DNA of 64,000 bases from Escherichia coli (GTDB lineage Bacteria; Pseudomonadota; Gammaproteobacteria; Enterobacterales; Enterobacteriaceae). The DNA is taken from the NCBI RefSeq assembly GCF_041886205.1, contig NZ_CP169029.1. One strand, 5' to 3'. Below, piece by piece: positions 27,894 to 34,970 of this stretch. The notes under the pieces are model-generated. The model was given only the letters and a program-made list of their open reading frames with translations, was not told the origin of the DNA and did not search any database. The translations under genes were made by a program, and so were the position numbers. Each line of letters begins with the position of its first letter. The stretch's first letter is position 1.

Positions 27894-30800
27894 TCACAGG
27901 TTTTTATAACATGTCGCATAAGCAAACCCAAGCTTTTCAAATACGCTTTGATCACCTGTTGCCAGGGAAACTACGTATTGTTCGCTTGAGTTTGCGGGAC
28001 TAGATGACCAATACATATTTGATTGAAAACCAGCGTCAGTCGTGTAATGCCCCATATCTCCCCATTCACTGTACAGTGACCCGATGCCTCGGGAACTACA
28101 GTGGTTTAAATAGTTTGCTCTGGGGAGCGTGTAGCCATTGCTGCTGCAAAAATTTTCAGCAAGGCTGTATATCATGAAAGCCTCGCCGGCGTTCACCCAC
28201 CAACTCTTCACACGGATTTCGTATACATAGCTAGGGCCTCCTGATTTTGGCGTCGCCGTAATCCTTTCCGAATTGCTGCCGACATTTTTAAATGTCACTT
28301 TACCGGTAGCATCAACATCGACCCAGGAGGCAGAGCTTGAAAACTCATAATCAGCCGCCGTTTTTCCTGGGGCAAAGTTGTCATTATTCAACTGATAATA
28401 CGCCCCGGTGAACCCCTGCGAAGGGAATGTAGTTGTCGGTAGGTCAGTACCATTGACTGATACTGTACCGCTCATTATTTTGTCTTCTGCGCGAGTGAAT
28501 TGTATTGTGGTACTCAGACCAGCTTGATGAACACCATTCAATACAGGGATCAGCGTTGCGATACCCTCTCCGCCTCCTGTAATAGTGGCTTTGTAATCAC
28601 CGTTGATATTTAGACTGTAATCAATTGCGCTAATTTTTATATAGGGCACGTTAGTACCTGATTGCACAAATTCCATCCCTTCAGAAACTTTGATCGGATT
28701 GCCTGATATATCGTGCAGAACAAGACGTAATTCAGCACTATCGGTATAGTCCCCTTTCAGTGATGACCGATTGCTCTTAAGGACGGACTGCGAGGTGTCT
28801 GCCGGGCCAGCCACCAGCGTTATATCTACTGTTTGCATTCCACCAGCGGTCGTGACTGCGCTTACCGTGACGCTACCTGTCATCGCTCCTTTCACGCTTG
28901 TTGTCGCGATTCCGTTTTGATCGGTCACCGCTGTTAATGACGTTAATGTGGCAGAGCCGCTTTTTAAGGCGAAGTACACAGTGAGACCTTCGATCAGGTT
29001 ACCACTGCCATCCTCAACCGTTGCCTTTAAGGTACTTAAATCAGTGTTGGTGGCGGCGATAGTCGATGGATCAGCGATAAAGCTAGCAACATGGGCGGTG
29101 CTTGAGTTGCCAGTGACTTTCACGGTTGTCTGTGTCTGTATTGTTACGCCGTTATGGAAAGATGCAGTCACCGTATATGTACCGACTTTATTGCTGGTCA
29201 AAACGACTGGAGCCTGACCTGAAGAGTTAGTTCTCACTTTTCCGCCACTTAACGTCGCCCCTTCTGGCGTTACGCTAAAGTTGATGACCTGACCCTCCAC
29301 TGGAGTGCCATTTGCAGAGGTTAGCGTTGCCGTCAGAGTAGCGCCTGTAGGGGCATAGACACCGATAAGCGGACTGGACGCCGTGAGTGTCAGTTTTTCA
29401 TCAATAGCCTCCAGTTGTTTCTCAAGTGAGGCTCCATTCGGCAGGGATGCTTTCACCATATACGAACCGTTTCTTTCGGGCGTCATGGTGACCTCGGCTA
29501 CACCCTGCGTATTAGTAGAGACCGTATTCTGGCTGATGATCATTTGCGAGGATGGCTCTGCACTGAATGTCACGGGTTGATGCGCAACCGGGTTGCCAAA
29601 CTGGTCGTTAACGTGAGCTTTAACTGCTACGTCTTGTGCGACCATTACCTGACCTTCCGGTATCTCCAGACTGGTAATCGTCGCAGAATTAACATCTGCA
29701 CTGGCATTCAGTAATCGCGAGATGACTTCAGTAGGTTTATCTGCCAGAGAGGCTGAAACTGTTTTCAGTCCGACCTCGGTGCTTGTCACAAGAATTTCAG
29801 CGAAACCCCGATCATCCGTTTCAACGCTGGTGCTGCTTAGCGTGACGGAGGTTCCGCGGAAATTAACTTTTATGCCTTCTACCGGGTTGCCGTTAGCGTC
29901 AGTGACGCTTGCCGTCATGGTTGCGCCCTCGGTCGTGCTGACGACGAATGAGTATACAGAGGTTAAGGAGGCTAGTTTTGCGGTACCAGCATCGGCAATC
30001 AAAGTCACCTGTTTCGTATCACTGACACCATAATTGTTCACGCTAACTGTCACGGGGTAGGTGCCGGATTTTGTACCGCTCAGTGTAACTTCAGCCTTGC
30101 CGTTGATATCAGTAATGGCGGAACCGCCTTGTCCGAGAGTAAAGCTTGCGCTCACATCTGCCGGTAGCGTGAATGTCACCGCCTCATTGGCTAACGGGTT
30201 GCCGTTTCCATCAGTCACTGTTGCCTGCAGCCTGGTCATCCCGACGTTATTAGCGATAAAATTGTCCTCGGTAACGTTAAGATTAACCTGTGCAGTGAGC
30301 GTATCCGCAATAAAGTTCACCACCAACTGCTCACTCTTACCGCCAGTCATCGATGCTGTAACAGTATGAGCGCCTGCTTTTGTACCTTTCAGCGTGACTT
30401 TCGCTTTGCCTTCAGCATCAGTAATCACTTTACCGCCATCGCTCAGCGTGAAGTTCGCCTTCACATCTTCCGGCAGAGTAAATGTTACCTCAGTGTTGGC
30501 TATCGCATTGCCCTCTGTATCAGCGACTGTTGCTGTTAGTGTCGTGAGATCGTTATTGTCGGCAATCACCGGATCCTTCGAGGCTGCCAGCGTGATTTCA
30601 GCATTCGCGACGTTCGGCACATAGGTCACTGTTTGTTGCATCGAATCGCCATTTTCGAGGGTTGCCGTCAATTGATAAACCCCGGCTTTTGTAGCGGTAA
30701 AGCTTGCGTAAAAATTGCCGTCGTGGTTGGTAGTATATATAGCGTTATTACTGGGGGTCACGCCTTCACTTGGTGAAACGCTGAGGGTTACCTCCTGCTG

Positions 30801-34970: not shown

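What the first reader, a model, noticed from the sequence alone, without database searches (positions are those of the whole stretch)
27894..34970. Giant inverse autotransporter YeeJ with about 20 tandem Ig-like repeats and a lectin-like tip
The 7.1-kb gene is built from near-periodic repeats of about 100 aa. The repeats at DNA level create many spurious antisense ORFs and are substrates for repeat-number variation. The ORF here (track 2383 aa) appears slightly longer than the K-12 protein as I remember it, which would fit a different repeat count.
Basis: partly seen in the sequence, partly recalled or inferred. Interest (0 to 1): 0.35.

Follow-up and report, generated by a model that had tools for sequence, protein, structure and literature searches.

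The report
Ordinary K-12-type yeeJ adhesin gene
This is the already characterised E. coli giant adhesin gene yeeJ in its common K-12-length form, so the suspected extra length is only an ORF-calling artefact. While comparing other strains I also found an unexplained, recurrent deletion breakpoint near the start of the gene.

Summary
The gene is real and correctly named. It is yeeJ, an inverse autotransporter, on the minus strand at 27894..34970, sitting between asnT and the yeeL pseudogene.

The idea that it is longer than K-12 is refuted:
- 2383 aa is only the maximal ORF, counted from an upstream TTG at 35045 that has no ribosome-binding site.
- Against MG1655 there are 6 SNPs, 0 indels and 3 amino-acid changes.

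The passenger holds 17 Big_1/Invasin_D3-type modules of about 101 aa. These are followed by an invasin-D4-like Ig domain and a C-type-lectin-like tip. The tip was modelled at pLDDT 96.8 and matches invasin 1CWV at TM 0.81.

The modules are old and divergent (median 25% aa and 40% nt identity). The longest exact direct DNA repeat is 16 bp, and Tandem Repeats Finder finds nothing. This allele is therefore a poor substrate for repeat-number change. Antisense ORFs are no more frequent than in codon shuffles.

Module-number variants do exist in other strains: +906 bp, long allele minus 609 bp, and about 312 bp lost.

Side observation: in other genomes at least 9 independent deletions end at CDS nt 88-93, within the motif CGGGTA|TCTG (window 34876-34885). 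The same motif is a breakpoint in asnT islands. The cause is unknown.

The parts
27894..34970 (-). yeeJ coding sequence (2358 codons plus stop), using the RefSeq start ATG at 34970
   Evidence: ORF list and translation. Same length and position as K-12 MG1655 yeeJ WP_010723107.1. 6 SNPs, 0 indels and 3 aa changes against K-12; 2 SNPs against strain CFSAN061772. An SD-like GGAAGG lies 7 nt upstream of this ATG.
34971..35045 (-). In-frame upstream extension to TTG 35045 (also ATG 34997); source of the '2383 aa' figure; probably not translated
   Evidence: The ORF caller starts at the first start codon after a stop. No SD-like sequence lies before TTG 35045. RefSeq annotates 34970 in K-12 and CFSAN061772.
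34836..34970 (-). N-terminal extension plus signal peptide (aa 1-45; KLRR n-region, hydrophobic core, AAA|Q)
   Evidence: Read directly from the translation; no signal-peptide predictor was available. PMC5595812 proposes a later start, at the Met I count as residue 20, ATG 34913.
34617..34763 (-). LysM-like periplasmic segment (aa 70-118)
   Evidence: Pfam LysM scores only 15.8 bits (cutoff 20.9, E 0.013). Weak PDB LysM hits. The residues are identical to K-12 YeeJ, whose LysM was shown to bind peptidoglycan (PMC5595812; aa differences lie elsewhere).
33714..34541 (-). Inverse-autotransporter beta-barrel (aa 144-419)
   Evidence: Pfam IAT_beta E 6.6e-113, 377 bits. PDB invasin barrel 4E1T E 5e-80 and intimin barrel 4E1S E 4e-67.
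28494..33662 (-). Array of 17 Ig-like modules (aa 437-2159), Big_1/Invasin_D3 type, 94-111 aa each
   Evidence: Pfam, self-built HMM, segmentation and pairwise identities. The first module (437-533) is inferred from position only. The second is supported by Invasin_D3.
28209..28493 (-). Invasin-D4-like Ig domain (aa 2160-2254)
   Evidence: Pfam Invasin_D4 at 25 bits, below its cutoff of 27. Profile match to invasin 1CWV D4-D5, E 2.3e-35. AF2 model and Foldseek search.
27897..28208 (-). C-type-lectin-like tip (aa 2255-2358) with a conserved Cys pair
   Evidence: AF2 pLDDT 96.8 and pTM 0.89. Foldseek invasin 1CWV TM 0.81, rmsd 2.7 A; intimin 1F00 TM 0.70; true C-type lectins much weaker. Pfam Intimin_C 21.9 bits, below 27. 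C121 and C200 of the 204-aa segment are nearly invariant among 59 homologues.
27847..27874 (-). Terminator-like hairpin (12-bp stem, T run) 20 nt after the stop codon
   Evidence: Consensus scan only.
31762..31784 (-). Position where long alleles carry 906 extra bp (3 modules); lies in the conserved LTATVKD motif of module 7
   Evidence: Alignment to O157:H7 F7386 yeeJ (7983 bp, 2660 aa) shows one 302-aa gap after aa 1062. The two alignment blocks overlap by 23 nt.
34876..34885 (-). Intact copy of CGGGTA|TCTG (CDS nt 82-91 plus 4); recurrent deletion endpoint in other strains
   Evidence: Junctions read in 9 other genomes. 64 of 2960 genomes have only a partial match to nt 32-151. The same motif is a breakpoint in asnT islands.
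35284..35359 (-). tRNA-Asn gene (asnT), immediately upstream; a known island integration site
   Evidence: ARAGORN; annotation of K-12; PMC5595812.
23946..26644 (+). IS66-family element (tnpA, tnpB, tnpC), 2699 bp, 8-bp target duplication CAATATTG; context only
   Evidence: NCBIfam IS66 TnpA/TnpB/transposase. Boundaries from alignment to K-12. Inverted repeats starting GTAA and the duplication. Absent in K-12 and CFSAN061772.
26645..27632 (+). yeeL pseudogene (glycosyltransferase family 9, internal stop); its first 73 nt lie at 23873-23945, on the other side of the IS
   Evidence: RefSeq annotation of the K-12 counterpart, coordinate mapping, weak heptosyltransferase match.

Best explanation
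The locus is an intact copy of yeeJ, the E. coli type Ve (inverse) autotransporter adhesin, in the short K-12-type allele.

Proposed mechanism, with the basis for each step:
- A signal peptide takes the protein across the inner membrane. This is inferred from the sequence.
- A LysM-like segment contacts peptidoglycan. This was shown for the identical K-12 segment in PMC5595812.
- A 12-stranded barrel inserts in the outer membrane and exports the C-terminal passenger. This is inferred from homology to the intimin and invasin barrels.
- The passenger is a rod of 17 Big_1-type Ig modules. It carries at its end an invasin D4-D5-like Ig plus C-type-lectin-like superdomain. This architecture is shown here.
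- YeeJ promotes biofilm when expressed, and its ligand is unknown (PMC5595812).

The modules are ancient duplications that have diverged too far at DNA level to recombine readily, so this allele has the reference module number. The '2383 aa' length is an ORF-calling artefact.
For: - Same length and position as K-12 yeeJ, with 6 SNPs and 0 indels.
- Synteny asnT-yeeJ-yeeL-shiA.
- Pfam IAT_beta, Big_1 and Invasin_D3; PDB barrels 4E1T and 4E1S.
- 17 modules with mean length 101 aa.
- The tip modelled at pLDDT 96.8 matches invasin (TM 0.81) and intimin (TM 0.70); profile E 2.3e-35 to invasin D4-D5.
- No tandem DNA repeat; longest exact repeat 16 bp and nt identity median 40%.
- About 1664 of 5426 complete genomes hold this short form in one piece.
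- Published function of K-12 YeeJ (PMC5595812).
Against: - LysM and Intimin_C do not reach Pfam's gathering scores on this sequence.
- No NCBIfam model passes its cutoff; the best is the IatC N-terminal model at 1182 bits against 2400.
- The true start codon is unsettled: 34970 in RefSeq, or the later Met proposed in PMC5595812.
- No sigma-70-like promoter was found between the asnT terminator and the start. This fits the reported very low expression, so the gene may be silent under most conditions.
- Expression and function were not tested for this strain.
Confidence: 0.95

Rival explanations
1. One reading: this allele is longer than K-12 yeeJ because it has a different number of Ig repeats, produced by recombination between the repeats.
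For: - The maximal ORF is 2383 aa.
- Module-number variants do exist in the species. The long allele has +906 bp, 3 modules. Strain E47 is the long allele minus 609 bp. The island-linked remnant lacks about 312 bp.
Against: - The window aligns to K-12 over 7152 nt without any gap.
- The 25 extra codons lie upstream of the annotated ATG, outside the repeat array.
- The modules of this allele share at most 16 bp of exact identity, and Tandem Repeats Finder finds nothing.
Confidence: 0.02
2. The gene is a silent relic on its way to loss. It is intact here only by chance and is exposed to the same deletion process that has destroyed it in other lineages.
For: - Roughly 1966 genomes carry only a divergent island-linked remnant.
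- Many alleles are frameshifted, IS-interrupted or deleted.
- 64 of 2960 genomes have a break near nt 91.
- No promoter-like site lies upstream, and expression in K-12 is very low (PMC5595812).
- The neighbouring yeeL is a pseudogene hit by an IS66 element.
Against: - A 7-kb ORF is kept open, with only 3 aa changes against K-12.
- About 2900 genomes keep the 5' end intact.
- Expressed YeeJ is surface-exposed and promotes biofilm (PMC5595812).
Confidence: 0.15
3. Some of the antisense ORFs inside yeeJ (for example 31093-31452 and 31810-32169, plus strand) are real overlapping genes.
For: Six plus-strand ORFs of 102-119 aa with start codons lie inside the gene.
Against: - Their number is what codon shuffles of the same gene give: 10 stop-free runs against 7.1-8.9 +/- 2.
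- They lie in the two antisense frames that are stop-poor for compositional reasons (74 and 68 stops against 158 in the third).
- None is annotated in K-12 or CFSAN061772.
Confidence: 0.02

Closest known systems
YeeJ of E. coli K-12 MG1655 (b1978, WP_010723107.1), characterised in PMC5595812
   Same: Same locus, same length (7077 bp, 2358 aa) and same domain order. 99.9% nt identity; 3 aa differences (A511V, T1252A, I2130V).
   Different: Six SNPs. The flank differs: this window has an IS66-family element in the yeeL pseudogene.
Long yeeJ allele (UMN026 type; here O157:H7 F7386, 7983 bp, 2660 aa)
   Same: Same locus and architecture; 95.6% aa identity over the shared residues.
   Different: The long allele has 906 extra bp (302 aa, 3 modules) after aa 1062. 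It also contains an 825-bp internal duplication at 83.5% identity with a 74-bp exact repeat. About 1277 of 5426 genomes carry that segment.
Invasin of Yersinia pseudotuberculosis (PDB 1CWV, barrel 4E1T) and intimin of EPEC/EHEC (1F00, 2ZQK, barrel 4E1S)
   Same: Inverse-autotransporter barrel (E 5e-80 and 4e-67). Ig-like rod. Terminal Ig plus C-type-lectin-like superdomain (TM 0.81 and 0.70). Conserved terminal Cys pair.
   Different: - YeeJ has 18 Ig-like domains, against the 4 of invasin and intimin as I remember them.
- Only about 20-24% identity in the tip.
- The intimin NCBIfam model scores 432 bits against a cutoff of 1400.
- No Tir or integrin binding is known, and the ligand is unknown (PMC5595812).
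FdeC, IatC and IatD of E. coli (PMC6714894; FdeC PDB 4E9L)
   Same: Paralogous E. coli inverse autotransporters with Big_1 arrays. IatC and IatD also have LysM and a lectin-like cap. The IatC N-terminal model is the best NCBIfam hit.
   Different: Different loci and lengths (1415, 2934 and 1747 aa). The IatC model scores 1182 bits against a cutoff of 2400, so this is not IatC.

Membership tests
Inverse autotransporter (type Ve secretion, intimin/invasin family) | Beta-barrel of the IAT_beta type | tested here: met
   Pfam PF11924 at 377 bits against a cutoff of 22.3. Solved invasin and intimin barrels at E 5e-80 and 4e-67.
Inverse autotransporter (type Ve secretion, intimin/invasin family) | Inverted order: barrel N-terminal, passenger C-terminal | tested here: met
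   Barrel at aa 144-419, Ig array at aa 437-2254, lectin-like tip at aa 2255-2358.
Inverse autotransporter (type Ve secretion, intimin/invasin family) | N-terminal signal peptide | tested here: inconclusive
   KLRR followed by a hydrophobic stretch and AAA|Q can be read in the translation. No predictor was available, and the start codon is ambiguous.
Inverse autotransporter (type Ve secretion, intimin/invasin family) | Periplasmic LysM domain (present in the long members) | tested here: inconclusive
   Pfam LysM 15.8 bits against 20.9, E 0.013. The segment is identical to that of K-12 YeeJ, for which peptidoglycan binding was shown (PMC5595812).
Inverse autotransporter (type Ve secretion, intimin/invasin family) | Passenger built of bacterial Ig-like (Big_1/Invasin_D3) domains | tested here: met
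   Big_1 at 685 bits in 14 stretches and Invasin_D3 at 416 bits in 15 stretches. 16 hits to the self-built HMM.
Inverse autotransporter (type Ve secretion, intimin/invasin family) | Surface display of the passenger through the barrel | not testable with these tools
   Shown experimentally for K-12 YeeJ (PMC5595812), not for this strain.
yeeJ orthologue (K-12 short allele) | Same chromosomal position (asnT - yeeJ - yeeL - shiA) | tested here: met
yeeJ orthologue (K-12 short allele) | Full-length collinear near-identity, 7077 bp, without the 906-bp segment | tested here: met
   6 SNPs and 0 indels over 7152 nt. A single 302-aa gap against the long allele.
Invasin D4-D5 / intimin D2-D3 type terminal superdomain (C-type-lectin-like fold) | Fold match of a confident model to solved invasin and intimin tips | tested here: met
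   pLDDT 96.8. 1CWV TM 0.81, E 1e-14; 1F00 TM 0.70. Profile E 2.3e-35 and 1e-8. Pfam Intimin_C alone is sub-threshold at 21.9 against 27.
Calcium-dependent carbohydrate-binding C-type lectin | EPN or QPD plus WND sugar/calcium-binding motifs | tested here: not met
   None of these motifs occurs in aa 2255-2358 (read). True C-type lectins match only weakly (query-normalised TM about 0.3). 'Lectin-like' names the fold, not the activity.
Intimin (eae) | NCBIfam intimin equivalog score | tested here: not met
   NF033627 scores 432 bits against a cutoff of 1400.
Repeat-number-variable (contingency-type) tandem-repeat gene | Near-identical tandem DNA repeats long enough for slippage or homologous recombination | tested here: not met
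   Tandem Repeats Finder finds none. The longest exact direct repeat is 16 bp, and the best module pair is 59% nt identical. The long allele does contain a 74-bp exact repeat.

The most novel reading that the evidence does not exclude
The signal-peptide-coding region of yeeJ contains a sequence-specific break or recombination site, CGGGTA|TCTG. It lies at CDS nt 82-95, with the break after nt 91 (window 34880/34879).

In other E. coli genomes this exact point is one end of many independent deletions of 0.3 to 7.5 kb. The other end is variable and shares 0-8 nt of short homology with the site.

The same 10-mer, also preceded by a small hairpin, lies upstream of a Pfam Integrase_1-type tyrosine recombinase gene in asnT-linked islands. 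There it is again a recurrent deletion endpoint.

The most novel reading not excluded is a site-specific nick, made by an island-encoded recombinase or an HUH-type enzyme, that inactivates this adhesin gene through one-sided deletions. The window carries the site intact.
Probability: 0.3. Interest if true: 0.55.

Novelty: already known. Interest (0 to 1): 0.13.

Why it matters
For the finding as stated, very little. It is a known, characterised gene in its reference-length allele, and the apparent extra length teaches only that maximal ORFs overstate gene length.

Two things are useful for annotation:
- The Ig modules of yeeJ are too divergent at DNA level to behave like a contingency locus. 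Module-number differences between strains are therefore old, lineage-fixed indels rather than ongoing variation.
- 'Lectin-like' describes the invasin/intimin-type fold of the tip, not a demonstrated sugar-binding activity.

The recurrent nt-91 breakpoint, if it reflects a site-specific enzyme, would explain why yeeJ is so often truncated next to the asnT island hot spot. It would also give a tractable example of sequence-directed gene inactivation.

Tried and rejected
- Tandem Repeats Finder and exact-seed repeat search on the gene found no arrays, only 20-35-nt matches at 61-85% identity.
- phmmer of the C-terminal 199 aa against PDB gave only chance hits.
- The first AlphaFold run, with a shallow 22-sequence alignment, gave pLDDT 42.6 and was discarded. 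A 59-sequence alignment from the representative library solved this.
- NCBIfam has no model that names this protein above its cutoff.

For the nt-91 hot spot:
- The yersiniabactin-island junction is at nt 276, not 91, so that island is not the cause.
- The deletion in the 'laboratory-derived' EC0026B genomes is shared by all five derivatives and by isolate AST19, so it is inherited and did not arise in the laboratory.
- The hairpins next to the motif are not significantly stable (z about -1.7).
- No genome has the two halves of the site separated, so it is not a currently occupied insertion site.
- No second copy of the island's 15-mer lies in the APEC O78 island.
- A resemblance to the ColE1 oriT region, recalled from memory, was dropped because the known nick position does not fit.
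- Literature searches for the motif and for yeeJ deletions found nothing relevant.
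Full report
**What is there.** A single open reading frame runs on the minus strand from 35045 to 27894. Counted from the first possible start, a TTG at 35045, it is 2383 aa. Two other in-frame starts exist. One is an ATG at 34997. The other is the Met at residue 20 (ATG 34913), which the published study of YeeJ preferred when it described a '2340 aa' protein (PMC5595812).

**Comparison with the reference.** A megablast against 5426 complete E. coli genomes finds the 7152-nt stretch at 99.9% identity in K-12 MG1655 and at 100.0% (rounded) in strain CFSAN061772. In both it is annotated 'inverse autotransporter adhesin YeeJ'. RefSeq K-12 yeeJ is 7077 bp, at exactly the position that corresponds to 27894-34970. 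A base-by-base comparison gives 6 substitutions and no indel against K-12, with 3 amino-acid changes (A511V, T1252A, I2130V). Against CFSAN061772 there are 2 substitutions. The 25 'extra' residues are an upstream extension produced by the ORF rule. They are not part of a ~100-aa module.

**Context.**
- The gene is flanked by asnT (35284-35359) and mtfA on one side.
- On the other side lie the yeeL pseudogene and shiA, as in K-12.
- The window differs from K-12 by a 2699-bp IS66-family element at 23946-26644. It has an 8-bp target duplication (CAATATTG), inserted 73 nt into the yeeL pseudogene.
- A terminator-like hairpin follows the stop codon.
- No sigma-70-like promoter was found upstream. 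This agrees with the very low expression reported for K-12 (PMC5595812).

**Anatomy of the protein.** Pfam gives IAT_beta (aa 144-419, 377 bits), Big_1 (14 stretches) and Invasin_D3 (15 stretches). The barrel matches the solved invasin and intimin barrels at E 5e-80 and 4e-67. An HMM built iteratively from the protein's own repeats finds 16 copies. With the Pfam Invasin_D3 hit at 533-624, the segmentation is 17 modules between aa 437 and 2159. They are 94-111 aa long, with a mean of 101. The first module is inferred from its position only. The near-periodicity of about 100 aa is therefore real, but the count is 17 plus one terminal Ig domain, not about 20.

**The tip.**
- By sequence alone the C-terminus is weak: Invasin_D4 scores 25 bits and Intimin_C 22 bits, both under Pfam's cutoffs. 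A single-sequence search of PDB finds nothing.
- A profile search of 1.84 billion representatives found 353 relatives.
- A 59-sequence alignment of the last 204 aa matches invasin D4-D5 at E 2.3e-35 and the intimin Tir-binding fragment at about 1e-8.
- With that alignment AlphaFold gives pLDDT 96.8 and pTM 0.89.
- Foldseek places the model on invasin 1CWV (TM 0.81, rmsd 2.7 A over 198 columns) and intimin 1F00 (TM 0.70). True C-type lectins match far more weakly.
- Two cysteines (C121 and C200 of the 204-aa segment) are nearly invariant across the 59 homologues; as I remember it, invasin and intimin have a disulphide there.
- The sugar- and calcium-binding motifs of real C-type lectins (EPN/QPD, WND) are absent from the sequence.

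The 'lectin-like tip' is therefore confirmed as a fold, and no lectin activity follows from it. LysM is sub-threshold here (15.8 bits against 20.9). However, the segment is identical to the K-12 one, which binds peptidoglycan experimentally (PMC5595812).

**Are the repeats repeats at DNA level?** No.
- Tandem Repeats Finder reports nothing in the gene.
- Between modules, amino-acid identity has a median of 25% and a maximum of 51%.
- Codon-aligned nucleotide identity has a median of 40% and a maximum of 59%.
- The longest exact direct repeat anywhere in the gene is 16 bp. From general knowledge, this is below the roughly 20-30 bp needed for efficient RecA-dependent recombination in E. coli.
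- A blastn of the gene against itself finds two short off-diagonal matches: 179 bp at 70% and 59 bp at 83%.

This allele is a poor substrate for repeat-number change.

**Antisense ORFs.** The six plus-strand ORFs of at least 100 aa correspond to 10 stop-free antisense runs of at least 100 codons. Shuffling codon order, which destroys the repeats but keeps the codon set, gives 7.1 +/- 2.0. Shuffling synonymous codons gives 8.9 +/- 2.0. The runs lie in the two antisense frames that are stop-poor for compositional reasons. Repetition is not their cause.

**Variation in the species.** Module-number variants exist but are discrete and lineage-bound.
- The long allele (O157:H7 F7386, 7983 bp, 2660 aa; the UMN026 type of PMC5595812) differs by one 302-aa block after aa 1062. 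Its breakpoints fall in the conserved LTATVKD motif of two modules three units apart, within a 23-nt imperfect homology.
- About 1664 genomes hold the short form in one piece. About 1277 hold the 906-bp segment.
- The long allele contains an 825-bp duplication at 83.5% identity with a 74-bp exact repeat. Strain E47 carries a long allele that has lost exactly that 609-bp offset.
- The remnant of yeeJ next to the yersiniabactin island, present in roughly 1966 genomes, includes a loss of about 312 bp, one module, across a 30-nt overlap.

**An unexplained observation made on the way.** While mapping truncated alleles I found that many unrelated genomes have deletions whose left end is the same nucleotide: ...CTTAACTGCGGGTA| after CDS nt 91.

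Deletions that keep the left side of the site:

| Strain(s) | Right end of the deletion |
|---|---|
| LR-28 | nt 416 |
| F11 | nt 3229 |
| EC0026B derivatives and AST19 | nt 4469 |
| fM51a | nt 4805 |
| B18271 | nt 5892 |
| STEC306-308 and Eco_23-3571 | nt 7626, inside yeeL |
| GDSC2227PM | the long-allele-specific segment |

- Two genomes keep the right side instead, from nt 88-92, joined to island DNA: EC26 and 21EVA.
- Of 2960 genomes that hold nt 32-151, 64 match only partially. None has the two halves apart.
- Partner sites share 0-8 nt with the sequence left of the break: A, TA, TA, TA, TATC, none, GGTA, GCCGGaTA.
- The same 10-mer, CGGGTATCTG, occurs in an asnT-linked island about 490 bp upstream of a Pfam Integrase_1/Phage_int_SAM_2 recombinase gene. 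There, GGGTA| is again a deletion endpoint, joined to yeeJ nt -6 in Ch1 and F11 and to an Rhs gene in EC09.

A fixed end with variable, weakly homologous partners resembles what is known, from my own knowledge, at nick sites of rolling-circle replicons and at secondary sites of site-specific recombinases. I therefore favour a site-specific nick, but nothing here identifies the enzyme. The adjacent hairpins are not significantly stable. The window carries the site intact at 34876-34885.

**Verdict.** This is a known gene in its reference-length allele. The identification is right, the proposed length and repeat difference is an artefact, and the claims about DNA-level repeats and antisense ORFs do not hold for this copy.

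Noticed in passing
window 34876-34885 (minus strand; break between 34880 and 34879); seen in loci L005-L009, L013-L016, L018, L019: The motif CGGGTA|TCTG in the yeeJ signal-peptide region is the shared endpoint of at least 9 independent deletions in other E. coli genomes. The partner ends are variable, with 0-8 nt of short homology. The same motif next to an Integrase_1-type recombinase gene in asnT islands is also a recurrent deletion endpoint. 64 of 2960 genomes have a break in nt 32-151. The cause is unknown.
   Followed up: partly
window 23946-26644: An IS66-family element (tnpA 23999-24676, tnpB 24676-25023, transposase 25043-26614), 2699 bp. Its inverted repeats start GTAA and it has an 8-bp target duplication CAATATTG. 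It is inserted 73 nt into the yeeL pseudogene. It is absent from K-12 MG1655 and from CFSAN061772, although the latter's yeeJ differs from the window by only 2 SNPs.
   Followed up: partly
window 23873-23945 and 26645-27632 (plus strand): yeeL, a glycosyltransferase family 9 pseudogene with an internal stop as in K-12. It is intact in O157:H7 and several other strains.
   Followed up: no
window 17275-17350, 19099-19174, 35284-35359: Three tRNA-Asn (GTT) genes lie within 18 kb. Each sits in a repeat of about 85-110 bp that cross-matches the others at 93-100%. Several different islands use asnT in other strains: yersiniabactin, an Rhs-bearing island, and a 28-kb mobilisable element.
   Followed up: no
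window 34913, 34970, 34997, 35045 (minus strand): Four in-frame candidate starts for yeeJ. Only ATG 34970 has a clear SD-like sequence. The published study of K-12 YeeJ used the later Met (residue 20 by my count, giving 2339 aa, not the 2340 stated).
   Followed up: partly
L003:6392-7825 (O157:H7 F7386 long allele, CDS nt 3036-4469): The long allele contains an internal 825-bp duplication offset by 609 bp (83.5% identity, 74-bp exact core). Strain E47 (L010) has lost exactly this offset. Unlike the window's allele, the long allele is recombination-prone.
   Followed up: yes
L006 (LR-28) and L008 (21EVA): Some truncated alleles carry a second, unrelated internal deletion: 3039 to 6096 in LR-28 and 157 to 1324 in 21EVA. 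These junctions were not examined.
   Followed up: no
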